Shown one piece after another: positions 3,590-58,076 of a stretch of 64,000 bases of DNA (position 1 is the first letter of the stretch; every line of letters starts with the position of its first letter). The position numbers were made by a program, and so were the translations under genes. The notes under the pieces are model-generated. The model made no database searches and was not told the DNA's origin. It worked only from the letters and a program-made list of their open reading frames with translations. Source of the DNA: Deltaproteobacteria bacterium RIFCSPHIGHO2_02_FULL_40_28 (GTDB taxonomy: Bacteria; UBA10199; 2-12-FULL-40-28); NCBI GenBank assembly GCA_001798135.1, contig MGRJ01000020.1:31513-95512 (forward strand), written 5' to 3'.

Positions 3590-6286
3590 TTATAGTGCAA
3601 TGAGAGGAGCAAATCCCATTGAGGCATCTAACCCCACTCCTGCAATCATAATACGTCCCATGGCATCAAAAGCTAGTCCGCCACCTAGGGCCGGGGCTCC
3701 ACTCCATCCATTATTTGTTGCAGCAGCAATGCCTAAACCTACTCCCAATTGGTTGGGAACCACTTCATAAAATACTCCTCCTCTAGCAGAAGCATAGGCA
3801 TAAAGAGGGAGAGCTGCTGTAACGGGGTTCATAAGGCCTGCAAGCATATCAGAGGGTTGTTTGCCTACTCTCACTCCAGTTTCCAATTGGCTTTTAAAAT
3901 AAAGTTTTCCATTGGGGACTAAATTTTTTCGATGAGTGGCCGATATATTTACACCCGCATAAACCCCACCACTAAAAGAAATCCCAGGGCCTGCTGTTAT
4001 TTTTACAATGGTGTTGGTGTTGGGATTGTACATAATGCCTACATAGGGTTGATTCCATAATTCACGAGCCGATATAATACCTTGTAAATTATATCCTGCT
4101 AAAACACTCCAATCTGATGTGGGGCTTCCAATGGGATGAGTAAATTCAAAACCCAAATTTGCTGCTTGATAGGAATTATTTGCAAAACCCAAATTAACTG
4201 CCGAATTCAAGGTAAGTGAATCTCCAGCCTTATTGAGGTAGGGCATAGTATAACCCACTCCTGCATTCAAAGCAGGGGCTAAAGGAATTCCACTCACACC
4301 TGCACTTGTCAGTAAATTGTGCCCATTCATGAAGCGAGTGGTAGCACCTCCATAAGGAGAGGCACCTGTGGCACCACCATCTATGCCAAATTCCGGAGAT
4401 ATGAGGATACCATCCCTGGCTAATTTAACTTTAATGATGACATCTCCAGGGCGTTTTTTATCGGGAACAATATCCCAAACAATCTGTACTGGAAAATTTC
4501 CTCCAGGTTTACTTTCAGCTTTGCGGTCAATACGATTATGGTCGCTCCAATCTGGAAGCCCAGAGCGCTCTAATTGATCAAGTTGGTAGTCGATAATGGT
4601 AGAGTAACCTGTTGTTCTGTTGCCAATAGCTAAAATGGTATTAGCAACATCTGTATGTTTGTAATACCTTCCTTCAAAATCCAATCTTTTGCGGAGCATT
4701 TTTTCTCCACCCTGGGTATAAAACCAATCTTGTAATTGGGCATAAGCTGCTGGGTTGTCTTCTTTTCCATAAAATTCAAAATCAATTTTTGAAATTTTTG
4801 CAAAATGAAGATTGGTTAATCCACTTGGAGTAGGACGGCCAATAACGAGTTTTTGATTATCATAAGAGAGATCAACGGCTCTAGCATCCATAGCTTCATC
4901 TGTTTCAGGATCTATTTCTACCCCTGATTTTAAAAGATAACCTTCTTCAAGTTGGTAATATTGGTCTAACTTGGCAAGACCCCGATTGATGGATTTATTT
5001 GTATACTGAGGTTGTTTGCGCCCAGGTTTATGGTTTTTAAACCAATGTTCCAATCGATGAGGATTAAGTTGTATATCTGAACGCAGTTCAATTTTTTTGG
5101 GCATGGGAATCAAAATATAATTGAGATGAAGAGTAGATCCATCGGCCCAAGGTTTTCCACCAGGTTGAACATAGTATGAATGTCCATCCAGTTGTCCTTT
5201 ATTAAAGTAGGCAACAAGATCTTGTTCGAGTTCTTTTATGTTTCTTTCGTTTAAAGGGTAACGAATTTTTATTTCCTTAGATGCTGGATTAAACGAAATA
5301 TTTTTAACGGGGTGTCCATCCTTATCTGCAATGGTTGCATCAAGTGTAACAGAGAGATATTGGGGTTTGCAAAGAACTGGAATTACAAGTTCGTTGTGGT
5401 CGTTAATTTCCGGGGTTCCTAAACCTGCAAAATGCTCAAACTTTTTATTTTTCTTAAAATAACTTTGTAATTTTGATATTCCTTTTTCAATGTTCTTTTG
5501 AGAATAAGGGTAATCAAAAAAACTAAGAATTTTTTTTGTTAATTGATCTCGAATTTCTTGATTGGCATAGGGCAGGCCTTCATCATCTGTAATCAAGGGA
5601 ACAATTCCTTCCACAGGGGGGCTTATTTTATAAACAACGGTTACTTTTCCTTCTTCATCAAACTTAATATCAATGGGTAGAACATTGACGGTATTTTTAA
5701 AAAGAGATTGGGCTATGTTTTTAAAAATACCTTCGAGTTGAGCAAACTCTTCAGCGGAAATCACACCATCTTTTCCAACAATCTTTTCTGTTTTTTTGCG
5801 GATGGTTTTTTCTAAATGTTCAAGACGTTGTGATGTTTCTTTTGAAGGACGCCACTCATTTTTTAAGTGAGGTCCTTCAACAGAACTAAAAGAATATCCC
5901 CATTCAAACTTGGTTCCTCCATAAGAAAAATTGGAAGAATCTTGTTCATTTTTCCAAAGTAGTTTGGCTTGAGTTGTTTTTTTAAGTCCTTTTTCAGGGC
6001 TAGAATGGATAAGGGTTAATTCATGAGGAAGTTGTTTAAGATCTATTGTTGGATCAAGCCAGGCAATGTAGCGATAATTTTGGTTATGAATGGTTTGCTC
6101 AAAAATAATTTCATCAAAGAAGGGTTTATCAAATTGAGTGAAAAAATCTTTGGGCTTTATACTGGCATCAACTATTTCAAAGTGATCAAGAGGAATAAAC
6201 TCCGATCCATTTTGAATGGCCGATTGAACAGGAATATCTTCAGAGGTGTTATCACCACGAACAGAATTGAGAACAAAGTGAACCAT
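3590..6286 (-). CDS. Large hypothetical protein (898 aa) with Gly/Ala-rich C-terminal domain
   Basis: Long uninterrupted ORF with no obvious N-terminal signal peptide (MVHFVLNSVRGDNTSED). The C-terminal ~300 aa are strongly G/A/S/N-rich with alternating hydrophobic residues. No catalytic motif recognised. Confidence 0.6.
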   Translation of the reverse strand: MVHFVLNSVRGDNTSEDIPVQSAIQNGSEFIPLDHFEIVDASIKPKDFFTQFDKPFFDEIIFEQTIHNQNYRYIAWLDPTIDLKQLPHELTLIHSSPEKGLKKTTQAKLLWKNEQDSSNFSYGGTKFEWGYSFSSVEGPHLKNEWRPSKETSQRLEHLEKTIRKKTEKIVGKDGVISAEEFAQLEGIFKNIAQSLFKNTVNVLPIDIKFDEEGKVTVVYKISPPVEGIVPLITDDEGLPYANQEIRDQLTKKILSFFDYPYSQKNIEKGISKLQSYFKKNKKFEHFAGLGTPEINDHNELVIPVLCKPQYLSVTLDATIADKDGHPVKNISFNPASKEIKIRYPLNERNIKELEQDLVAYFNKGQLDGHSYYVQPGGKPWADGSTLHLNYILIPMPKKIELRSDIQLNPHRLEHWFKNHKPGRKQPQYTNKSINRGLAKLDQYYQLEEGYLLKSGVEIDPETDEAMDARAVDLSYDNQKLVIGRPTPSGLTNLHFAKISKIDFEFYGKEDNPAAYAQLQDWFYTQGGEKMLRKRLDFEGRYYKHTDVANTILAIGNRTTGYSTIIDYQLDQLERSGLPDWSDHNRIDRKAESKPGGNFPVQIVWDIVPDKKRPGDVIIKVKLARDGILISPEFGIDGGATGASPYGGATTRFMNGHNLLTSAGVSGIPLAPALNAGVGYTMPYLNKAGDSLTLNSAVNLGFANNSYQAANLGFEFTHPIGSPTSDWSVLAGYNLQGIISARELWNQPYVGIMYNPNTNTIVKITAGPGISFSGGVYAGVNISATHRKNLVPNGKLYFKSQLETGVRVGKQPSDMLAGLMNPVTAALPLYAYASARGGVFYEVVPNQLGVGLGIAAATNNGWSGAPALGGGLAFDAMGRIMIAGVGLDASMGFAPLIAL

Positions 6287-6420
6287 ACTTTATTCCCCAT
6301 GTCCCTCTTCTGTTTAATTATCGGGCATTATTAGAAAAGATCTTCTCTATTGGTAATGAATTTGGGTACAGGCTGTATTCAAAGTAAACCGACCAAAACT
6401 AATCATATTACCGAATAGTC

Positions 6421-6449
6421 TTGACTAAAAATAAAGATAGTGCATAATA
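6421..6449 (+). promoter_or_regulatory. Candidate sigma-70-type promoter for the AAA ATPase gene (near-leaderless)
   Basis: TTGACT (6421-6426), 16-17 nt spacer, CATAAT/ATAATA (6443-6449); predicted transcript start within a few nt of the ATG at 6456; flanked by direct repeat AATAGTCTTGA x2. Confidence 0.35.
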
Positions 6450-6455
6450 GTCTTG

Positions 6456-7574
6456 ATGTTTCGTAAAAGACGCCAGGCCATATTAAAAGATCTCACAAAA
6501 AAAATGGTGTTTTTAACAGGTCCCAGGCAGGTGGGAAAAACCTGGCTTGCCTTGGATATTTCCAAGGACTTTAAAAAACCAACCTATCTTAGTTTTGATA
6601 ATCCAGACCATAGACAAGTGCTTAAAGGAAGAGAATGGCTGCCAGATACCGATCTTCTCGTTCTGGATGAAATTCATAAAATGCGTGGATGGAAAAATTA
6701 CCTGAAAGGAGTTTATGACACGAAACCAGAGAGTTTGAGTATCTTAGTTACAGGGAGTGCTCGCCTGGAAACTTTTCGTCAGGCAGGAGATTCTCTGGCT
6801 GGAAGATTTTTTGTTCATCATCTCATGCCTTTTTGTTTAAACGAACTCCCCAATTCTACGTTGGAGGATCAACAAAAATTGATTGAATGTGGAGGATTTC
6901 CAGAGCCATTTTTAGCTCCCAATCAAGAAGAGGCCAGTCGCTGGCAGTCTTTGTATTTTGATAGTTTAATGCGAGAAGAAATTTTTGAATTCCAACGAAT
7001 TTTCGAGTTAAAAGCGATAAGGCTTATTCTAGAGCGTTTACAAAGAAATGTTGGGAGCCCTGTTTCCTATCAATCTCTGGCAGAAGATGTGCAAATATCA
7101 CCACAAACGGTTAAACGGTATATTCAGATCTTAGAGGATCTTTATATTATTTTTCGTGTTATTCCTTATTCTCAAAATATTGCCAGATCTTTACTCAAAG
7201 AACCCAAAATTTATTTTTACAATACTGGTTTTGTAGTGGGAGATATTGGTGCCCATCTTGAAAATTTTGTTGCTGTTAGTCTTTTAACTCACCTGTTTGA
7301 AAAAAGTGATTTACTGGGTGACAAAACTCAATTGGCCAATTTGCGAACAAAGGAAAAAAAGGAAGTTGATTTTTGTTTGGTTGTAGGAAATAAAATCAAA
7401 GAGTTAATCGAATGCAAACTAACCGATGATCAGCTAGCCCCTTCTCTCCGATATTTTTGCAACAAATACCATTTGAAAGGAACTCAACTTGTTAAGACCC
7501 CCCGCATTGAAAAACAGGTAGAATCCATCCAAATAAGGGCTAGTTTTCATTATTTGAAAGGCCTTGGATCATAA
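6456..7574 (+). CDS. AAA+ ATPase, AAA_14/DUF4143-type
   Basis: Walker A GPRQVGKT, Walker B-like LLVLDEIH, and a C-terminal DUF4143-like region. The N-terminal ILKDL..KMVF extension is shared with the paralogs at 43469 and 44620. Confidence 0.8.
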   Translation: MFRKRRQAILKDLTKKMVFLTGPRQVGKTWLALDISKDFKKPTYLSFDNPDHRQVLKGREWLPDTDLLVLDEIHKMRGWKNYLKGVYDTKPESLSILVTGSARLETFRQAGDSLAGRFFVHHLMPFCLNELPNSTLEDQQKLIECGGFPEPFLAPNQEEASRWQSLYFDSLMREEIFEFQRIFELKAIRLILERLQRNVGSPVSYQSLAEDVQISPQTVKRYIQILEDLYIIFRVIPYSQNIARSLLKEPKIYFYNTGFVVGDIGAHLENFVAVSLLTHLFEKSDLLGDKTQLANLRTKEKKEVDFCLVVGNKIKELIECKLTDDQLAPSLRYFCNKYHLKGTQLVKTPRIEKQVESIQIRASFHYLKGLGS

Positions 7575-20267: not shown

Positions 20268-20443
20268 GTCATTCCCGCGAAGGCGGGGGTCCATCTTGGT
20301 TCCCCTCCTTTGTAAGGAGGGGTTAGGGGAGGTAGAGAGTTTAGTAAGACTCTACCCCCTCCAACTCCCCCTTACAAAGGGGGAGAGTACAGATGGATCC
20401 CTGCCGGAGTTTACCCCTGCGAAGGCAGGGGCAGGGATGACAC
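20268..20443. repeat. Composite palindromic element: family-B terminal inverted repeats enclosing family-C hairpins
   Basis: Left end GTCATTCCCGCGAAGGCGGGGGTCCATCT, right end AGATGGATCCCTGCC...GGGATGAC. Interior has perfect hairpins CCCCTCC-TTTGTAA-GGAGGGG and CTCCCCC-TTACAAA-GGGGGAG. About 175 bp, GC-rich in an AT-rich context. Confidence 0.85.
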
Positions 20444-42413: not shown

Positions 42414-43472
42414 ATGAAGCATCTTATTGGAGAGCACATTGTAGGTGGATTTGATGGCGTAACGATAACTGCGCAATTACATTTGCTTGTTCAAAAATAT
42501 CACTTGGGTGGTTTTATTTTTTTTCGTCGAAATATTGAAAATACAGATCAAGTTTTAGAACTCACTCAAAGTCTTCAAGAAAAATCAGAAAATATTTTAT
42601 GGATGGGGGTAGATCAAGAAGGAGGACGTGTTTTTCGTTTAGGGGAACCCTTCACGACAATTCCTACCATGGCCATTGTGGGCGAATATTATCGGCGCAC
42701 CAAAAATAAAAAAGTTCTTTTTCAATTAGGAAAACTTTTAGGAACAGAACTCAAAGCTGTGGGATTTAACTGGGACTACGCTCCCGTGGTGGATGTTCAT
42801 TCTAATCCTCAAAACCCAATCATTGGTGATCGCTCTTTTAGTCCCGATCCCCATGTGGTTACACAGTGTGCAGAAGCTGTAATCAAGGGGCTGCATAGTG
42901 TTGGAGTTGTTTCTTGCATCAAACATTTTCCAGGGCATGGAGAAACAGCGGTTGATTCGCATCTTAAACTTCCTGTGGTAAAATCTCCTGGAAGGCTTTT
43001 ATGGAAGCGTGATGTTTTCCCTTTTCGGGAGCTGATTAAAAAACATAGGGTGCCAACGCTGATGACAGCTCATGTAAAATACATGGAGTTTGATAAACAA
43101 AATTGTGCCACTCTTTCCAAACCCATTTTAACGCGTATTTTGCGTGGACGTTTGGGGTATAAAAATTTGATTGTTTCGGATGATCTTTTTATGAAGGCCA
43201 TTGCAGACAGGTATAGTTTAGCTGATGCTTGCGAGCAATTTTTTATGGCAGGGGGTGATATTGCTCTTATTTGCAAAGAGCCAGAACTACAAATTGAAGT
43301 CATCGAACAATTAGAAAAATCAGTTTCAAAAAGTAAGGCCTTCGAAAAAAAATTAACAGAATCTTATTCTCGTATTAAACGCATCAAAAAACACTATCTC
43401 AAAAACCAATCTCGTCCATCCCTTGAGGTTATTGGATGTGTTGCTCACAAAGAAATTGCAAATATTTTTTAG
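42414..43472 (+). CDS. nagZ: Beta-N-acetylhexosaminidase (GH3, NagZ-like)
   Basis: GH3 blocks MGVDQEGGRV, NWDYAPVVDV, KHFPGHG. Confidence 0.85.
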   Translation: MKHLIGEHIVGGFDGVTITAQLHLLVQKYHLGGFIFFRRNIENTDQVLELTQSLQEKSENILWMGVDQEGGRVFRLGEPFTTIPTMAIVGEYYRRTKNKKVLFQLGKLLGTELKAVGFNWDYAPVVDVHSNPQNPIIGDRSFSPDPHVVTQCAEAVIKGLHSVGVVSCIKHFPGHGETAVDSHLKLPVVKSPGRLLWKRDVFPFRELIKKHRVPTLMTAHVKYMEFDKQNCATLSKPILTRILRGRLGYKNLIVSDDLFMKAIADRYSLADACEQFFMAGGDIALICKEPELQIEVIEQLEKSVSKSKAFEKKLTESYSRIKRIKKHYLKNQSRPSLEVIGCVAHKEIANIF

Positions 43473-44578
43473 ATCAGTTGATTAAGAAACAAACCAGCTG
43501 GACAAATACGGATATTTTCTTTTGAAAGAAAATCTTTCTTACCCTGAAGTGAAATTTGCCAGGCTGGAACGGAGGGAAATTTTGTTTTAAGATATTTAAG
43601 TCCTTCTGAAGGAGCATCATCAGAGAGCTTGCATTCAACAAACAAGTAAGGTTTACGGTTTTCAGTTACAACAAAATCAACCTCTCGTTTATGCACATCA
43701 CGAAAATAACAAAGGGCCATTTCTCTGCCTTGCGTGTCATACAAATAATGGGTCCACTTCAAAAGATGGCAAGCTATCATATTTTCGAAACGAAGAGCAG
43801 AATTGTCTACAAGGGTCCAATCATAGTGGTAATGTTTTTGTTCTTTTTTAACAGCTCTGATTTTAGGAGCCCCAAAGGGTGCAAGCCTAAAAATAGCATA
43901 GAGTCGCTCAAGAACATTGAGCCAACGAGAAACTGTTTTATGATTTAATTGTAGATCTTCTCTTAAGCTATTGATGGAAAGAGGGCTTCCAACCAATTCA
44001 GGCAAACGAATCATAAGAAGTTCTAGTTGTCCTAAATTTTCGATGCCCTCAAGAGATCTCACTTCATCTTGAATCAAGCGATTGCGGTATTCAAGAGACC
44101 ATCGTTTGGATTCAATTTCATTTTTTTTAAGATAGGGTTCTGGGAATCCGCCCAATTGGAGAAGTTGTTGTAAATGAGAGGAAGAAGACATCTTCAGTTC
44201 GGCAAAAGAAAGAGGGTGAAGACGCAAATAATGATAGCGGCCTTGGAGCGAATCGCCACCAAAACGATAATAATCAAGCCTAGCACTTCCTGTAATTAAA
44301 AATTGGCAATTCTTTTTTCTTTCATCGTAGAGTCCTTTGAGATAATTCCGCCACTGACGATACTTGTGGATTTCATCAAAAATAAGGAGCCCTTTTTCAG
44401 GGAGTTCGTATTTAAGAATACGTTCCCGATGTTCTGGGATGTCCCAGTTCAAATAAACATGGGAAGAATAAGCCAAATCCAAGGCGAGGGTTGTTTTCCC
44501 AACCTGCCGTGGTCCACCTACGAAAACCATTTTGGAATTCAAGTCTTTAAGGATTTGTTTTTGAAGATACCGCTCCAT
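43469..44578 (-). CDS. AAA+ ATPase, AAA_14/DUF4143-type
   Basis: Walker A GPRQVGKTTLA, Walker B LLIFDEIH, DUF4143-like C-terminus; in tandem with the paralog at 44620. Confidence 0.8.
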   Translation of the reverse strand: MERYLQKQILKDLNSKMVFVGGPRQVGKTTLALDLAYSSHVYLNWDIPEHRERILKYELPEKGLLIFDEIHKYRQWRNYLKGLYDERKKNCQFLITGSARLDYYRFGGDSLQGRYHYLRLHPLSFAELKMSSSSHLQQLLQLGGFPEPYLKKNEIESKRWSLEYRNRLIQDEVRSLEGIENLGQLELLMIRLPELVGSPLSINSLREDLQLNHKTVSRWLNVLERLYAIFRLAPFGAPKIRAVKKEQKHYHYDWTLVDNSALRFENMIACHLLKWTHYLYDTQGREMALCYFRDVHKREVDFVVTENRKPYLFVECKLSDDAPSEGLKYLKTKFPSVPAWQISLQGKKDFLSKENIRICPAGLFLNQLI

Positions 44579-44619
44579 TTGAGTATTTTATACAATAGGG
44601 TAAATAAGTAAATACTTTT

Positions 44620-45777
44620 TTATACAATGGTATAAGGCAACTCTTTTACAAATTTAGCAAAAGGGAGAACCCTTATGGGAAAAGTGGCATGTTCATAATC
44701 TTTTACCCCTAGATGAACTTGATAAAAGCGAGGTATTTTTAGCCTTTGGCAATAGTAAAAAAGAGAAGGATTAATTGTTGTTTGATTGATATGGCACTCA
44801 ACAGCAAATAATGGTTTTTTTTGTTTTAAGACAACAAAATCAACCTCACGTTTATCTGTATCACGGATATAACGAAGTTCCATAGGAAATCCCTCTACAT
44901 CTTCCATAAAGTTGCAATATTTTAGGAGATGAGAAGCAACCATGTTTTCAAAGCGGGGGCCTTTTTCTTCAACAAGGGACCAATCCCATAAATAAGCCTT
45001 ATTTTCCTTTTTAACTGCCCTGATTTTAGGAGCTCCAAAGGGAGGAATACGAAATAAAACAAAAAGACGTTCTAGAATGATTAGCCAATTTTGAACAGTT
45101 GGGTGAGAAACTTGGAGATCTTCTCTTAAAGCATTAATAGAAAGAGGGGACCCTACCAAGGCAGGGAGTCTTTCTGCAAGTTGACCAACCAGAGTTACCT
45201 CTTCAACACGTTCTAAATCTCTTAAGTCATCTCGTAATACTTGGTTAAATCTTTCCTGATGCCATCGCCTGAGTTTTTTTTGTGATTGGGAAAATAAAGG
45301 TTCTGGAAAGCCACCAAACTGAAAGAGGGATTCTACAGCATCAACATGAGCCTCTTTGTCTAGTTCTAAAAGACTAAAAGGGTGGAGTCTAAAAAAATGA
45401 TATCTTCCCGTAAGGGCATCTCCACCACGTCTATAGAGATCAAGTCTGGCGCTTCCTGTAACTAAATAAGCACGTTGTGTTTTTGTTTTATCATAAAGAC
45501 CTTTAAGCCAATTACGCCATCTTTTATATTTATGAATTTCATCGAATACCAAAAGTTTTTGATTGGGTGGAAATTGAAAATTAAGGAGAAGCTGTTGATC
45601 TTCTAAGAAATCCCAGTTAAAGTAGGCAGGATGGTTTTCGCTTCCTCCTAGGAGATTTAAAGCCAAGGTTGTTTTACCTACTTGGCGAGGCCCTGATAGA
45701 AAAACCATTTTTTCTTTTAAGTCTTCTTGAATATAGGGGGTTAAATAGCGTTTTGGCAGGTTATTAGTTATTTTCAT
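44620..45777 (-). CDS. AAA+ ATPase, AAA_14/DUF4143-type
   Basis: Walker A GPRQVGKTTLA, Walker B LLVFDEIH; start codon lies 3 nt from a perfect 30-bp palindrome. Confidence 0.8.
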   Translation of the reverse strand: MKITNNLPKRYLTPYIQEDLKEKMVFLSGPRQVGKTTLALNLLGGSENHPAYFNWDFLEDQQLLLNFQFPPNQKLLVFDEIHKYKRWRNWLKGLYDKTKTQRAYLVTGSARLDLYRRGGDALTGRYHFFRLHPFSLLELDKEAHVDAVESLFQFGGFPEPLFSQSQKKLRRWHQERFNQVLRDDLRDLERVEEVTLVGQLAERLPALVGSPLSINALREDLQVSHPTVQNWLIILERLFVLFRIPPFGAPKIRAVKKENKAYLWDWSLVEEKGPRFENMVASHLLKYCNFMEDVEGFPMELRYIRDTDKREVDFVVLKQKKPLFAVECHINQTTINPSLFYYCQRLKIPRFYQVHLGVKDYEHATFPIRVLPFAKFVKELPYTIV

Positions 45778-45780
45778 AGT

Positions 45781-45810
45781 ACTTAAAATTACTCATGAGT
45801 AATTTTAAGT
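45781..45810. promoter_or_regulatory. Perfect 30-bp palindrome (putative operator) immediately upstream of the AAA ATPase gene
   Basis: ACTTAAAATTACTCATGAGTAATTTTAAGT is exactly self-complementary; 3 nt from the start codon at 45777; flanked by further AAAATTACT / AAAATAACT motif copies. Confidence 0.5.
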
Positions 45811-46014
45811 TATATTAAAATTACTAATATCTAAAGTCAACAAATAAAAATCCTTTTTGTGGTCTAACCCCCCCAAAACGAGTGGTTAAGACCTCAAACA
45901 TACAAAAAGCATACTAAAATAACTAATAATATCAAATAGTTATATATATCATTTTTGGCATTGGCCTTGCAATTGTCATAAAGTAACCCGGGGTGGGGAT
46001 TGTGGATATTTTTT

Positions 46015-46752
46015 ATGAAAGTAAAAAGTCTATTTTTTATTTTATTTTTAATTACATTCCTTTTTGCCTGTAGTGGTGGAGGTGGTGGAGGTAGTGAAAC
46101 GACAGATATCCCTCTTGCTCTAGTTGATAGTGATGGTGATGGATTAACTGTTGGATGTGATGTTGATGATAACGATCCTACTGAAATCGATTTTCTTTCT
46201 ATTTGTGATAGCGATGGTGATGGCTATGTAAATGTGGTGTGTTCTGCTTACGATGATAACGAAAGTGGTGCTGTTACCGAAGATGAATTAGCAAGTCGTT
46301 TTTACTGCGATAACTGTGTTGGTATTAATAATCCCGATCAATTAGATGATGATCACGATGGCGCTGGCAATGCTTGCGATGTAACTGCCGATGTTTCTGT
46401 TTCCTATGTTCCATCTACTGCCGACGATGATTCTTCTGAAGAAGATACCTTATCTACTTCGAGTACCGATACAGATAGTGATGGTTTTCCCGACAATTCA
46501 GAAGCCTGTCCTACGCGTGGGCAGGCTGATGAATATTTTGCCTATGAGGATTGGAATGAAAATGGAACCTACGATGCCGATTCCGATACTCTTTTAACCG
46601 ACGAAAATACCTGGGATGGTTGTGGTTACGATACCGATGGTGATGAAATTTATGACCATGCCGAATGCTCTACACTTTGCGTGATCATGGAAAACTCTGC
46701 CGATAGCTCTGTGTGTGGTTTAGCTGATGATACTGGAGATAATTGCGATTAA
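46015..46752 (+). CDS. Acidic lipoprotein with calcium-binding-like Asp-rich repeats (hypothetical)
   Basis: Signal peptide with lipobox FACSGGGGGGS, then repeated DxDGDG / DSDGDG / DDDHDGAGN motifs (thrombospondin type-3-like) and conserved Cys. Confidence 0.6.
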   Translation: MKVKSLFFILFLITFLFACSGGGGGGSETTDIPLALVDSDGDGLTVGCDVDDNDPTEIDFLSICDSDGDGYVNVVCSAYDDNESGAVTEDELASRFYCDNCVGINNPDQLDDDHDGAGNACDVTADVSVSYVPSTADDDSSEEDTLSTSSTDTDSDGFPDNSEACPTRGQADEYFAYEDWNENGTYDADSDTLLTDENTWDGCGYDTDGDEIYDHAECSTLCVIMENSADSSVCGLADDTGDNCD

Positions 46753-55861: not shown

Positions 55862-55905
55862 AAAAATTAAGAACACATCTAAAAACTCAATTAAAATCTA
55901 AAATT

Positions 55906-55974
55906 GTCATTCCTGCGGAAGCAGGAATCCAGGCTTTTCAAGAGTTTCTGGATCCCTGCTTTCGCAGGGATGAC
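55906..55974. repeat. Family-B palindromic element
   Basis: GTCATTCCTGCGGAAGCAGGAATCCAGGC...GGATCCCTGCTTTCGCAGGGATGAC; sits between cutA and the truncated ATPase ORF. Confidence 0.85.
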
Positions 55975-55990
55975 ATAGAATAGTTTTTTA

Positions 55991-56821
55991 GTGATGCTCT
56001 TAATTACAAATTTACAACATAATGTAAAAATGTATTACAAATTTACAACATGTTGTAAATTTGCTTTGGCATGGGGCTTGCTGCCCTTGGTTGTTTTGAA
56101 CCCAACCGATGCAAAAGACATTCTTGTTTCCTATGTGCACACCTACATCAAGGAAGAAATTAAAGAAGAAGGGCTGATCAGAAAAGCAGAACCCTTTGTA
56201 CGTTTTTTAGAAATTGCAGCCATGATGAATGGCCAACAAATTAATGCGGAAAATATTGCGAGGGATGCAAAAATTCCGCGAAGCACAGTGGATATTTATT
56301 TTTCTATTTTGGAAGATACACTTCTTGGTTATCGGCTTCCCTCTTACCGGCCTAGAGCTAAGGTGCGGGAGCAAACTCATCCAAAATATTATTGGTTTGA
56401 TTCAGGTGTTGCCCGTGCAGCCGCAGGCCTTTTAAACGATGCTCCCGATCCAGCTTGGCTTGGCTATGCCTTGGAAACACTTGTTTATCTTGAACTGAGG
56501 GTTCATAACCATATATCGGGAAAGGAAAGACTTTTATTTTTTTATCGTGTTTCCAATACAATTGAGATCGATTTTATCATTGAAACCCGCAAAGCTGTTA
56601 GTGCCTCCAAGGCCCACGTTGTTTGTGTTGAAGTCAAACATGCAAAAACATGGAACCGAAGATGGGAAACTCCCATGCGGGACTTAGCCTCTTCTGGAAA
56701 GGTGGTGGTGGAGAAAATGTTTGGGGTTTATCAAGGGGATCATCCCTATCATTTTGATGGGGTGGATGTTTATCCCATAGGTGATTTTTTAAAAATCCTT
56801 TACGAAGGGAAGGTTTTTTAG
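55991..56821 (+). pseudogene. 5'-truncated AAA_14/DUF4143-type ATPase gene (DUF4143 portion only)
   Basis: Translation aligns to the C-terminal DUF4143 part of the intact paralogs and lacks the whole P-loop domain. The upstream 129 bp are occupied by a repeat, and the first ~25 codons of the ORF consist of tandem palindromic DNA repeats. Confidence 0.5.
56003..56058. promoter_or_regulatory. Tandem 18-bp direct repeats, each with a palindromic half-site
   Basis: ATTACAAATTTACAACAT at 56003-56020 and 56034-56051; second copy forms the perfect palindrome TTACAACATGTTGTAA; centres about 31 bp apart. Confidence 0.4.
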
Positions 56822-56843: not shown

Positions 56844-58010
56844 TTAAGCAAGCTTCGCCAATTCTTGGGCCATGGCTTTAACCCCGATGGCTTCCACACC
56901 ATCACCAAGGGGATAACGTTCATTCCCCGCATAAACAACAAAGCAACGTTGCGGTTTCATGTCTTGGCAGGCTTGGTAAAATCCTTTTTTCGGTTTGGGA
57001 GCAAGACCTCGTTTTATTTCAATGAACCAAAGCTTAGAACCTTTCAGCTCCAACACCAAATCTACTTCGGCGCCCGCTGCCGTTCGGTAAAAACTTTTTT
57101 CTATTTTTTCGGGCAGAGCGCGCAAAAGCGATTCGATGACAAATCCTTCCCAGCTAGCGCCCACAATGGGATGACCCAGAAGACTTTCTTCCGTGGTTAA
57201 CCCCAGAAGCGTGTGAGCAAGGCCACTGTCGCGGATAAAAATTTTAGGTGATTTTACCAGCCTTTTGCCGATGTTGGCATGAATGGGCTTTAACCTTCGT
57301 ACCAAAAGTAAATCAACCATGAGGTCCAAATACCGTGCAATGGTTTTGCCATCCACAGCTAGCCCCCTGGCCAGCCCCGCCGCATTGAGAAGACTTCCTT
57401 GCCCATGAGCTAGCATGGTCCAGAACCGCCGTAAGGTTTCGCTAGGGATGCGCGGGCCTAGTTGGGGGATGTCGCGCTCAAGGTATGTCCTGATGAATTC
57501 TTCACGCCAAGTGCTGCTCTGTTCTTCAGTTTTGGCTAGAAAACTGTTGGGAAAACCACCCCGCACCCAGAGCCGTTCCATTTGGGTTTCCGGCAATTCC
57601 AATGAATCAAACGGCGAGAGTTCTACGTAGGCAATGCGCCCGGCCAAACTTTCACCTGATTGTTTGAGCAAATCCAGCGATGCCGAACCTAAAAGAAGAA
57701 ACCGGCCTTGCTTCAACCCTTGCCTCCGGCCTTGGTCGATTAAACCTCGCAGGGTTTGAAAAAGTTGCGGGGCCCGTTGTATTTCATCGATCACAACAAG
57801 TTTGTTTTCATGAAGTTTTAAATATTTTTCAGCATCTAAAAGTTTTCCGCGGTCGGAGGGTAATTCTAAATCGAGGTAAACGCTCGGTCTTTTAGCTGCA
57901 ATCCCATGCGCCAGAGTTGTTTTTCCCACTTGCCGGGGGCCCACCAACGCCACAGCCGGAAATTCCTTCAGTCTCTTAACAACTAGGTTAGCTACCCGAC
58001 GGTTTATCAT
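56844..58010 (-). CDS. AAA+ ATPase, AAA_14/DUF4143-type
   Basis: Walker A GPRQVGKTTLA, Walker B LVVIDEIQ; start taken at MINRRVANL (the longer frame to 58151 would overlap sdhC). Confidence 0.8.
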   Translation of the reverse strand: MINRRVANLVVKRLKEFPAVALVGPRQVGKTTLAHGIAAKRPSVYLDLELPSDRGKLLDAEKYLKLHENKLVVIDEIQRAPQLFQTLRGLIDQGRRQGLKQGRFLLLGSASLDLLKQSGESLAGRIAYVELSPFDSLELPETQMERLWVRGGFPNSFLAKTEEQSSTWREEFIRTYLERDIPQLGPRIPSETLRRFWTMLAHGQGSLLNAAGLARGLAVDGKTIARYLDLMVDLLLVRRLKPIHANIGKRLVKSPKIFIRDSGLAHTLLGLTTEESLLGHPIVGASWEGFVIESLLRALPEKIEKSFYRTAAGAEVDLVLELKGSKLWFIEIKRGLAPKPKKGFYQACQDMKPQRCFVVYAGNERYPLGDGVEAIGVKAMAQELAKLA

Positions 58011-58076
58011 CCTTGTAATTATGGCATACAATTCCATAAATGCAAGGTTAGAGTAAAAGACAAGGCATATTTTTCC

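What the first reader, a model, noticed from the sequence alone, without database searches (positions are those of the whole stretch)
43469..45810. Tandem AAA_14/DUF4143-type ATPase paralogs with a perfect 30-bp palindrome at the promoter
Seen: two full-length P-loop ATPases with DUF4143-like C-termini lie head-to-tail, and three further homologs occur in the same 64 kb (6456-7574, 56844-58010, truncated copy 55991-56821). A perfect 30-bp inverted repeat (45781-45810) sits 3 nt upstream of the first gene's start codon, flanked by repeated AAAATTACT motifs, which looks like an operator array. Established: this ATPase family is widespread but functionally uncharacterised. Inference: local expansion plus dedicated cis-elements suggests a regulated, possibly conflict-related (defence or mobile-element-associated) function.
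Basis: partly seen in the sequence, partly recalled or inferred. Interest (0 to 1): 0.55.

Follow-up and report, generated by a model that had tools for sequence, protein, structure and literature searches.

The report
Self-operator palindrome on ATPase-nuclease gene
The 30-bp palindrome is real and belongs to an operator-like array that overlaps the promoter of a very common, uncharacterised ATPase-nuclease gene (candidate phage-defence family PDC-S01); it travels with that gene across bacterial phyla, so the gene most likely switches itself off by binding its own promoter.

Summary
Two full-length AAA_14+DUF4143 genes lie head to tail (44620-45777 and 43469-44578, minus strand). Three more homologs lie in the window. 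A perfect, unique 30-nt palindrome (45781-45810) ends 3 nt before the first ATG.

The family is already catalogued as PADLOC's untested defence candidate PDC-S01. The five copies are only 17-49% identical, so they are not a local duplication. All sit among housekeeping genes. The second tandem copy is missing from a syntenic 94% ortholog locus.

The palindrome core ACTCATGAGT lies just upstream of 16 of 80 homologous genes from many phyla. Arm positions 9-14 vary between loci but stay symmetric within a locus. Extra half-sites recur about 32 nt apart. The site overlaps sigma-70-like -35/-10 boxes placed so that the mRNA would be leaderless.

More distant homologs carry different palindromes, and these track the sequence of the protein's winged-helix recognition helix. 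The modelled fold is an Orc1/Cdc6- or STAND-like NTPase, then a winged helix, then a PD-(D/E)xK nuclease domain.

Best reading: a portable promoter-operator-gene cassette that represses itself. This is inferred, not shown. It is an ordinary kind of regulation, apparently undescribed for a very abundant family.

The parts
44620..45777 (-). P1: AAA_14 + DUF4143 ATPase-nuclease gene (385 aa), a PDC-S01 family member. Walker A is K35 and Walker B is D79/E80. The winged helix spans about residues 194-263 (recognition helix 225-237; the tracked 9-mer VSHPTVQNW is residues 223-231). Nuclease motif residues are E277, D313 and E327-C-H329.
43469..44578 (-). P2: second AAA_14 + DUF4143 gene (369 aa), 49% identical to P1, with a canonical D...ExK nuclease motif. 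It is absent from the syntenic ortholog locus L087.
45781..45810 (.). Perfect 30-nt palindrome with zero spacer, made of two head-to-head half-sites around the core ACTCATGAGT.
45762..45829 (.). Extended 68-nt imperfect palindrome (34-nt arms, 88% complementary). It holds four half-sites in alternating orientation and reaches into codons 1-5 of P1.
45761..45774 (-). Half-site copy inside the first codons of P1 (AAAATAACTAATAA). It forms a 14-nt perfect inverted repeat with 45916-45929.
45815..45828 (+). Upstream half-site (TTAAAATTACTAAT), 32 nt from its direct-repeat partner at 45784-45796. It lies in the spacer of the outer promoter.
45915..45929 (+). Distal half-site (TAAAATAACTAATAA), about 125 nt from the palindrome centre and conserved in L087.
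45812..45840 (-). Outer sigma-70-like promoter: TTGACT (45840-45835), 17-nt spacer, TAATAT (45817-45812). The palindrome would lie at about +1 to +30 of its transcript.
45786..45813 (-). Inner promoter-like site: ATAACT (45813-45808), 16-nt spacer, TAATTT (45791-45786), then 8 nt to the ATG. It sits in the same position as the TTGACT-16/17-TAAAnT-6-ATG of homologs and would give a leaderless mRNA.
   Evidence: read directly from the sequence
44585..44612 (-). P2's own promoter-like site: TTTACT, 16-nt spacer, TAAAAT, then 6 nt to the ATG at 44578. There is no SD. Degenerate half-sites AAGTATTTAC and TAAAATACTC flank it.
6456..7574 (+). P3: paralog (38-41% identical to P1/P2). Its upstream region reads TTGACT-17-CATAAT-7-ATG with a direct repeat AATAGTCTTGA x2.
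56844..58010 (-). P4: paralog (28-32% identical to P1-P3) with 49% GC. Its upstream region reads TTGCAT-16-CATAAT-7-ATG.
55991..56821 (+). P5: truncated copy with the DUF4143 part only.

Best explanation
The palindrome is the centre of a protein-binding operator array built into the promoter of P1.

**Architecture.** Four to five roughly 13-nt half-sites (TAAAATWACTMAT) in alternating orientation cover the -35/-10 region, the transcription start and the first codons. The gene has no Shine-Dalgarno sequence. A -10-like hexamer lies 6-8 nt before the ATG, so the mRNA is probably leaderless.

**Proposed binding protein.** The most likely binder is the gene's own product. It is an Orc1/Cdc6- or STAND-like NTPase, followed by a canonical winged helix-turn-helix with a basic wing, followed by a PD-(D/E)xK nuclease domain. 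As a symmetric dimer or higher oligomer it would occupy the palindrome and the flanking half-sites and repress its own transcription. Promoter, operator and gene would then form one self-contained cassette that works in any host.

**Shown:** the sequence architecture, its conservation with the gene across phyla, the within-locus symmetry of otherwise variable arm positions, the class-wise match between palindrome type and recognition-helix sequence, and the predicted fold.

**Inferred:** that the ATPase itself binds, that binding represses, where transcription starts, and any link to phage defence.
For: **1. Tied to the gene.**
- The exact core ACTCATGAGT occurs once per locus, 20-75 nt upstream of the match, in 16 of 80 genome loci with 45-70% homologs (Elusimicrobiota, Bdellovibrionota, Gammaproteobacteria and others). 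About 0.01 upstream hits would be expected by chance.
- In the capped sample of 120 metagenome loci that contain WTTACTCATGAGTAAW, 28 have a P1-like gene start within 200 nt in the right orientation.
- The core is conserved in the syntenic 94% ortholog and in 75% homologs in a different genomic context.

**2. More palindromic than background.** A palindrome score of 12 or more was found in 20 of 75 upstream regions and 0 of 375 control windows.

**3. DNA-type symmetry.** In 41 sites, arm positions 9-14 carry little information (0.1-0.8 bit). They are nevertheless Watson-Crick symmetric in 44-80% of sites, against 20-48% expected. G.T pairs are rare. An extra copy of the right arm sits 32 nt upstream, about three helical turns away.

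**4. Promoter overlap.** Many homologs read TTGACT-(left arm)-ACTCATGAG-TAAAnT-6 nt-ATG.
- A TAnnnT hexamer lies 4-11 nt before the start in 46 of 75 homologs, against 9 of 52 other window ORFs.
- An SD-like motif is present in 10 of 75 homologs, against 16 of 52 other window ORFs.
- All four full-length window paralogs share this geometry.

**5. Co-variation with the protein.** More distant homologs carry other palindromes that follow the recognition helix (P1 residues 223-231):
- x[YF]ET goes with ..ACATGTAT..
- H[RK]A goes with TTTGC-N-GCAAA (9 of 9).
- [TA]HKT goes with TTGAC-N-GTCAA or CTCGCGAG.

**6. Fold.** The AlphaFold model has pLDDT 92.
- Foldseek's top hits are archaeal Orc1/Cdc6 bound to origin DNA (2qby_A, 2v1u_A).
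- P3's helix region hits the HTH_11, HTH_24 and AsnC HTH models.
- The wing carries invariant K257 and K260.

**7. Weak support from expression data.** A Thermus AAA_14/DUF4143 gene rose 6.6-fold when both plasmid and TtAgo were present (PMC4406477).
Against: - No binding or expression data exist for this protein or for any PDC-S01 member that I could find.
- In STAND NTPases the winged helix is usually structural, not DNA-binding.
- Within class A the core stays constant while recognition-helix residues vary. The helix alone therefore cannot explain core recognition.
- The match between helix and palindrome class is confounded by phylogeny, and my class definitions were made after seeing the data.
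- The window's inner -35 is weak (ATAACT). The better outer promoter would transcribe most of the palindrome.
- P2's own half-sites are degenerate.
Confidence: 0.55

Rival explanations
1. The palindrome is the cognate DNA target or nucleation site of the ATPase-nuclease rather than merely an operator, or in addition to being one. It could be a recombination, insertion or homing-type site, or a restriction-like recognition site. Under this reading the cassettes spread as selfish single-gene elements.
For: - The protein has a PD-(D/E)xK nuclease domain.
- The gene is patchily distributed and crosses phyla. It is found on 492 plasmids.
- Five divergent copies lie in 64 kb, each between housekeeping genes.
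- P2 is present in this window and absent in L087. The indel is flanked by an imperfect roughly 15-nt direct repeat that resembles P2's own half-site.
- More distant relatives that keep the NagZ neighbourhood lack the ATPase.
- One PDC-S01 gene tested against T4, T5 and T7 was not among the protective systems.
Against: - The core occurs only once per locus. There is no second copy at the other end of the gene, so no terminal inverted repeats.
- No recombinase or transposase is nearby.
- The site's fixed register with the -35, -10 and ATG is what regulation predicts.
- P1 itself has H in place of the catalytic K.
- The flanking repeat around P2 is short, AT-rich and is a single case.
Confidence: 0.15
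2. The array is an operator for a host-encoded regulator, or for another unlinked factor, and not for the ATPase itself.
For: - The overlap with the promoter only shows that the site is regulatory.
- The class A core is invariant while the ATPase's recognition helix varies.
Against: - The site travels with the gene into unrelated phyla and unrelated neighbourhoods, with no conserved neighbouring gene.
- Palindrome class changes together with the clade of the ATPase.
- The core occurs only once in the 64-kb window, so there is no sign of a regulon.
Confidence: 0.12
3. The palindrome acts as an RNA hairpin in a 5' leader, controlling translation or mRNA stability.
For: - The outer promoter TTGACT-17-TAATAT would start transcription inside the palindrome.
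- The stem would end 3 nt before the ATG.
Against: - In many homologs the -10 lies inside the right arm and the ATG follows 6 nt later, so the palindrome would not be transcribed.
- The most conserved bases are the central CATG, which would form the loop. G.U-type pairs are rare.
- Direct-repeat copies recur at 32-nt spacing.
- The predicted RNA fold is weak: -5.4 kcal/mol, z = -1.3.
- No Rfam family matches.
Confidence: 0.05
4. It is an origin-like element: an Orc1/Cdc6-like initiator gene next to its inverted-repeat recognition boxes, as at archaeal origins.
For: - Foldseek's best hits are Orc1/Cdc6-DNA complexes.
- AT-rich inverted repeats lie next to the gene.
Against: - Five divergent copies sit in a bacterial chromosome segment among housekeeping genes.
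- The protein carries a C-terminal nuclease domain.
- The repeats coincide with a promoter, not with an unwinding element.
- Cumulative GC skew rises almost throughout the window, with only small dips elsewhere and no turning point at this locus.
Confidence: 0.03

Closest known systems
PADLOC phage-defence candidate PDC-S01 (Pfam AAA_14 PF13173 + DUF4143 PF13635; COG1373)
   Same: All five window proteins match PDC-S01 HMMs (E 1e-35 to 1e-95) and have the ATPase + PD-(D/E)xK architecture described for the family.
   Different: - The family is defined only by homology and by 'guilt by embedding'. Its function is untested.
- In one assay it was not among the protective systems.
- I found no description of the promoter-operator palindrome or of the leaderless layout. 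The library's only three DUF4143 papers and eight COG1373 papers, judged from the passages and abstracts I read, and the PDC-S01 passages I read do not mention them.
Archaeal Orc1/Cdc6 initiators and bacterial DnaA, which bind repeats next to or in front of their own genes
   Same: - The domain order is AAA+-type NTPase, lid, then winged helix.
- These are Foldseek's best structural matches (2qby_A, 2v1u_A).
- Inverted repeats lie next to the gene.
- Autoregulation through the protein's own DNA-binding domain is the proposed logic here (the Orc1/Cdc6 and DnaA behaviour is from established knowledge).
   Different: - There is no detectable sequence similarity, and TM-scores are only about 0.33.
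- This protein has an additional C-terminal nuclease domain.
- The gene is present in multiple copies among housekeeping genes in a bacterium.
- There is no evidence of a role in replication.
STAND NTPases with nuclease effectors (Avs/AVAST) and Arch_ATPase (2qen, 2fna)
   Different: - The protein is much smaller (385 aa).
- It has no repeat or sensor domain.
- The nuclease is C-terminal rather than N-terminal.
- The winged helix has a classical DNA-binding HTH signature.
Self-repressing operator-promoter modules of toxin-antitoxin and restriction-modification (C-protein) systems; leaderless repressor genes such as lambda cI from PRM
   Same: A palindromic operator overlaps the promoter of a mobile, potentially toxic gene. 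The unit is compact and portable. The mRNA is predicted to be leaderless. (The comparison rests on established knowledge of those systems.)
   Different: - Here a single polypeptide would be both regulator and effector.
- The array has 4-5 half-sites spanning about 70 bp, plus a distal site.
- Nothing has been shown experimentally.

Membership tests
Pfam AAA_14 + DUF4143 (COG1373) | Both domain models match above the gathering score, in N-to-C order. | tested here: met
   P1 scores 90 and 82 bits, P2 95 and 78, P3 88 and 85, P4 91 and 156. P5 has DUF4143 only (97 bits).
PADLOC PDC-S01 | The protein matches a PDC-S01 HMM. | tested here: met
   Best E-values are 3e-47 (P1), 9e-50 (P2), 5e-53 (P3), 3e-95 (P4) and 8e-35 (P5).
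PADLOC PDC-S01 | The gene is embedded in or associated with known defence systems. | tested here: not met
   Window neighbours are ATP synthase, aconitase, CutA, SdhA, NagZ, ABC permeases and an FAD oxidase. PADLOC models hit only the five ATPases themselves among the proteins scanned. Other window proteins were not scanned against PADLOC.
PADLOC PDC-S01 | The gene confers anti-phage activity. | not testable with these tools
   Literature only. Validation is described as pending (PMC12988326). One representative was not among the systems that protected against T7, T5 or T4 (PMC12881386).
PD-(D/E)xK nuclease | The catalytic residues D ... (D/E)xK sit on the core beta-strands, with a restriction-endonuclease-like fold. 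| tested here: inconclusive
P-loop AAA+/STAND-type NTPase | Walker A GxxxxGK[ST], Walker B hhhhDE, and a conserved Arg. | tested here: met
   G29, K35, T36, D79, E80 and R125 are invariant in 57 sequences.
Orc1/Cdc6 initiators | Sequence-family membership, and a winged helix plus initiator-specific motif contacting origin boxes. | tested here: not met
   There is no sequence hit to PDB chains. Only fold-level similarity was found (E 3e-7, TM about 0.33). NCBIfam gives only a sub-threshold Hda/DnaA hit.
STAND NTPases (Avs/NLR-like) | An NBD-HD-WHD module plus a C-terminal repeat or sensor domain. | tested here: not met
   The NBD-HD-WHD-like module is present. No repeat or sensor domain exists; the rest of the protein is the nuclease domain.
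Autoregulatory operator | Symmetric repeated sites overlap the core promoter of the regulator's own gene. | tested here: met
   This is sequence-level evidence only.
Autoregulatory operator | The gene product binds the site and represses transcription. | not testable with these tools
   The only evidence is indirect: palindrome class tracks the recognition helix.
Transposon/MITE terminal inverted repeats, REP elements or integron attC | A second copy of the repeat lies at the other end of the unit, or many dispersed copies occur, and a recombinase is present. | tested here: not met
   The core occurs once per locus and once in the window. There is no recombinase gene among the neighbours scanned. 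The window's REP-like repeats are a different sequence.
Known structured RNA (Rfam) | A match to any Rfam covariance model. | tested here: not met
   No match was found at the gathering threshold over the whole window, nor at E<=1 over 45600-46100.

The most novel reading that the evidence does not exclude
PDC-S01 proteins may be sequence-specific DNA-recognising NTPase-nucleases. Their winged helix would read a long palindrome (16-58 bp), and its specificity would diversify clade by clade. The copy in each gene's own promoter would be the cognate site. It would keep the enzyme repressed and parked on 'self' DNA, and it may also mark where cassettes insert. On this reading one of the most abundant 'defence candidates' would really be a family of autoregulated, variable-specificity restriction-like or homing-like selfish nucleases. 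That would explain the many divergent copies per genome, their scatter among housekeeping genes, and the lack of protection in a standard phage assay.
Probability: 0.12. Interest if true: 0.8.

Novelty: new member of a known kind. Interest (0 to 1): 0.45.

Why it matters
PDC-S01 is reported as the fourth most common 'defence' family in prokaryotes, with about 39,000 detected systems (PMC12988326), yet it has no known mechanism. A conserved, portable promoter-operator layout gives three concrete handles.

- It predicts that these genes are tightly self-repressed. They may therefore be silent in the heterologous assays used so far, which could explain a negative phage test.
- It proposes a specific DNA ligand for biochemistry.
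- The class-wise pairing of recognition helix and palindrome offers a natural specificity code that can be tested by swapping helices.

None of this changes the fact that autoregulation by a helix-turn-helix protein is an ordinary mechanism.

Tried and rejected
- **Chance palindrome:** rejected.
- **RNA element:** no Rfam hit, a weak fold, and the wrong conservation pattern.
- **tRNA or integration-site context:** there is no tRNA in the window.
- **Terminal inverted repeat or REP element:** only one copy per locus. The window's real REP-like repeats are unrelated in sequence.
- **Recent tandem duplication:** rejected. P1 and P2 are 49% identical, and P2 is absent from L087.
- **Defence island or mobile-element context:** not seen among the neighbours scanned.
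- **Phage origin:** 0 of 30 viral contigs carrying the 16-mer have the gene. Only 8 of 50,697 phage records hold a distant homolog.
- **Solved structure by sequence:** none.
- **Phylogenetic footprinting against L087:** uninformative, because the whole intergenic region is 89% identical.
- **Empty-site mapping through NagZ homologs:** the nearest relatives found are only about 55-60% identical. They lack the ATPase but are too diverged to define the cassette boundaries.
- **Literature search for 'AAA_14':** wasted, because the underscore is ignored by the search.
- **Leaderless reading:** it rests on consensus spacing only. My start-codon choice for the 75 homologs was heuristic.


Full report

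Yes. Two ORFs lie on the minus strand, 44620-45777 (P1, 385 aa) and 43469-44578 (P2, 369 aa), 41 nt apart. Both match Pfam AAA_14 and DUF4143 well above the curated cut-offs.

Three more homologs exist:
- 6453/6456-7574(+).
- 56844-58010/58151, which is on the minus strand.
- 55991-56821(+), which has DUF4143 only.

The sequence ACTTAAAATTACTCATGAGTAATTTTAAGT at 45781-45810 is a perfect zero-spacer palindrome that ends 3 nt before the ATG. It is unique in the window even with 3 mismatches allowed, and no shuffle gave a match.

The palindrome sits inside a 68-nt imperfect palindrome, 45762-45829, which runs into the first codons. TAAAATWACT occurs four times in 45784-45924, and six times in the window against 1.05 expected. 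In gene orientation the half-sites alternate in direction. A distal copy at 45915-45929 forms a perfect 14-nt inverted repeat with the copy inside the coding start.

**2. What are the genes?**

All five proteins match PADLOC's PDC-S01 models. PDC-S01 is a single-gene 'phage defence candidate' that was proposed by guilt-by-embedding and left untested (10.1101/2024.01.29.577857).

A 2026 survey calls it the fourth most common defence family, with 29,494 bacterial and 9,986 archaeal systems. It describes the protein as an ATPase fused to a PD-(D/E)xK domain and says validation is pending (PMC12988326). One representative was cloned into E. coli B and challenged with T7, T5 and T4. It was not among the four candidates that protected (PMC12881386). 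DUF4143 had been placed in the PD-(D/E)xK superfamily in 2012 with unknown function (PMC3424549).

No PDB chain matches by sequence. An AlphaFold model built on 57 homologs is confident (pLDDT 92).
- Foldseek's best hits are archaeal Orc1/Cdc6 bound to origin DNA, then RuvB, RFC and Apaf-1.
- The C-terminal domain matches Can1, Can2, NgoMIV and EcoT38I.

The protein is therefore a compact NTPase, helical lid, winged helix and PD-(D/E)xK nuclease. Walker A and B, R125, E277, D313 and E327 are invariant or nearly so. The catalytic Lys is His in P1 and its close ortholog, but Lys in P2-P4.

**3. Is this a local expansion in a conflict locus?**

It is not a recent expansion. The paralogs are 17-49% identical. 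P4 has 49% GC against 39% for the window.

The contig belongs to a groundwater MAG. Its NagZ is identical to a protein of Deltaproteobacteria bacterium RIFCSPLOWO2_12_FULL_40_28.

A syntenic contig encodes a 94% ortholog of P1, with the same neighbours: FAD oxidase, lipoprotein, ATPase, NagZ, ABC permeases, KARI and Memo. It lacks P2 entirely. The indel starts in the last codons of P1 and ends at the nagZ stop. It is flanked by an imperfect direct repeat, TAAAAAAGTATTTAC and TAAAAAATATTTGC.

More distant relatives that keep the NagZ neighbourhood have no ATPase there. Neighbours of all the copies are housekeeping genes. The genes are thus accessory single-gene insertions, not part of a visible defence island or mobile element.

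**4. The palindrome travels with the gene.**

Eighty genome loci encode 45-70% homologs of P1, from many phyla. The 10-mer ACTCATGAGT occurs exactly once, 20-75 nt upstream of the match, in 16 of them. About 0.01 upstream occurrences would be expected by chance.

Several of these are long perfect palindromes with different arms: 38 nt in L007, 58 nt in L019, 34 nt in L031 and 30 nt in L036. The 94% ortholog keeps a 24-nt perfect core. A group of 75% homologs in an unrelated context keeps an imperfect version with extra repeats.

An exact scan of metagenomes for WTTACTCATGAGTAAW was capped at 120 loci. In 28 of them a P1-like gene starts within 200 nt in the right orientation. None of 30 viral contigs with the 16-mer had the gene.

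Upstream regions score far higher for palindromes than control windows from the same loci. A score of 12 or more was found in 20 of 75 upstream regions against 0 of 375 controls; Mann-Whitney p = 6e-28.

**5. DNA site or RNA hairpin?**

In 41 non-identical class A sites, arm positions 9-14 are poorly conserved between loci (0.1-0.8 bit). Within a locus they are Watson-Crick symmetric in 44-80% of cases, against 20-48% expected. G.T combinations are rare, and the invariant bases are the central ones.

A further copy of the right arm, (G)AGTAAnnTT, lies 30 nt left of the centre. This gives a 32-nt direct spacing, which is also seen in the window. Another copy overlaps the first codons.

The RNA that the outer promoter would produce folds weakly (-5.4 kcal/mol, z = -1.3). 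No Rfam family matches. These features fit a symmetric protein-binding array, not a hairpin.

**6. Relation to the promoter.**

Many homologs read TTGACT-(left arm)-ACTCATGAG-TAAAnT-6 nt-ATG. The -35 lies at the left arm, the -10 inside the right arm, and the start codon where transcription should begin. A large metagenomic subgroup reads TTTACT-17-TATAGC-9 nt-ATG, which still overlaps the palindrome.

Across 75 homologs:
- A TAnnnT hexamer lies 4-11 nt before the chosen start in 46, against 9 of 52 other window ORFs.
- An SD-like motif is present in 10, against 16 of 52 other window ORFs.

The window shows the same geometry.
- P1 has an outer promoter, TTGACT-17-TAATAT.
- P1 also has an inner site in the homologous position, ATAACT-16-TAATTT-8-ATG.
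- P2 has TTTACT-16-TAAAAT-6-ATG.
- P3 has TTGACT-17-CATAAT-7-ATG.
- P4 has TTGCAT-16-CATAAT-7-ATG.

A leaderless, operator-embedded promoter therefore looks like a family trait. This rests on consensus spacing and is an inference.

**7. Who binds?**

More distant homologs carry other palindromes in the same place, often in two copies:
- ..TATACATGTATA..
- TTTTGC-N6-GCAAAA.
- TTGAC-N4-GTCAA, TATAC-N4-GTATA or TGGAC-N4-GTCCA.
- ACTCGCGAGT.

These classes follow the winged-helix recognition helix, P1 residues 223-231, VSHPTVQNW:
- x[YF]ET pairs with ACATGTAT in 9 of 11 cases.
- H[RK]A pairs with TTTGC..GCAAA in 9 of 9.
- [TA]HKT pairs with the TTGAC-type or CTCGCGAG sites.

The helix region has a classical HTH signature; HTH_11, HTH_24 and AsnC models hit P3. 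The wing is basic, with invariant K257 and K260.

No neighbouring gene is conserved across contexts. The cassette's own product is therefore the most economical candidate. I commit to self-repression by the ATPase's winged helix, with confidence of about 0.55.

The caveats are these:
- The helix-palindrome association is confounded by phylogeny.
- I defined the classes after seeing the data.
- The class A core is constant while the helix varies.
- STAND-type winged helices are usually not DNA-binding.

**8. Rivals.**

I considered four alternatives:
- The palindrome is the nuclease's target or an insertion site.
- A host regulator binds it.
- It is an RNA hairpin.
- It is an origin-like element.

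Each is set out in the Rival explanations section with its evidence. The target-site or selfish-element reading is the most interesting one that I cannot exclude.

**9. Verdict.**

The finding is real and the 'operator' reading survives a comparative test. The genes are ordinary members of a known, very abundant, uncharacterised family. The 'local expansion' reading is wrong, and the conflict role remains nominal.

The added value is a conserved promoter-operator-leaderless layout that appears undescribed. It covaries with the protein's DNA-reading helix and is directly testable.

Noticed in passing
window 43458-44619; locus L087 6100-6230: P2 together with its promoter is a strain-specific indel. 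It is absent from the syntenic locus that encodes the 94% ortholog of P1. The indel is flanked by an imperfect direct repeat, TAAAAAAGTATTTAC and TAAAAAATATTTGC, which corresponds to the 3' end of nagZ. In both genomes the stop codon of the last ATPase gene overlaps the nagZ stop by 4 nt.
   Followed up: partly
window 56844-58010 and 55991-56821: P4 has 49% GC against 39% for the window, which suggests recent horizontal acquisition. It lies tail to tail, 22 nt from the truncated DUF4143-only copy P5. The window therefore holds two separate pairs of adjacent paralogs.
   Followed up: partly
window 55905-55975; also about 20268-20441 and 28850: REP-like GC-rich hairpin repeats (GTCATYCCYGC ... 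GCRGGRATGAC) are present. Between cutA and P5 two hairpins form 28-nt inverted arms. The 11-mer occurs 8 times in the window with up to 1 mismatch allowed, against 1.2 expected. The sequence is unrelated to the ATPase palindrome.
   Followed up: partly
window 6290-6456, 44579-44619, 45778-45840, 58011-58060: All four full-length paralogs lack a Shine-Dalgarno motif and have a -10-like hexamer 6-8 nt before the ATG. Many other genes in the window, such as the atp genes, have clear AGGAG-type sites.
   Followed up: yes
window 46000-46752: The divergent neighbour of P1 encodes a lipoprotein-like protein: a signal peptide with a Cys, then a G-rich linker. It carries many acidic DxDxDG-type repeats and has no Pfam match. 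It has its own promoter-like site at 45955-45984.
   Followed up: no
window 3590-6286: An 898-aa ORF next to paralog P3 has no Pfam match at E<=0.001.
   Followed up: no
locus L088 8770-9944: A 75% homolog of P1 from another genome (GCA_900218045.1) lies about 2.6 kb from a RES-Xre toxin-antitoxin pair and near a ParA/ArsA-like ATPase. This is a more 'accessory' neighbourhood than the one in the window.
   Followed up: no
loci L044, L052, L063: A second, more distant ATPase with the Walker A variant G[AM]RQVGK[ST] (written) lies within a few kb downstream of the P1 homolog in 3 of 80 loci. Adjacency of family members therefore recurs but is not the rule.
   Followed up: no
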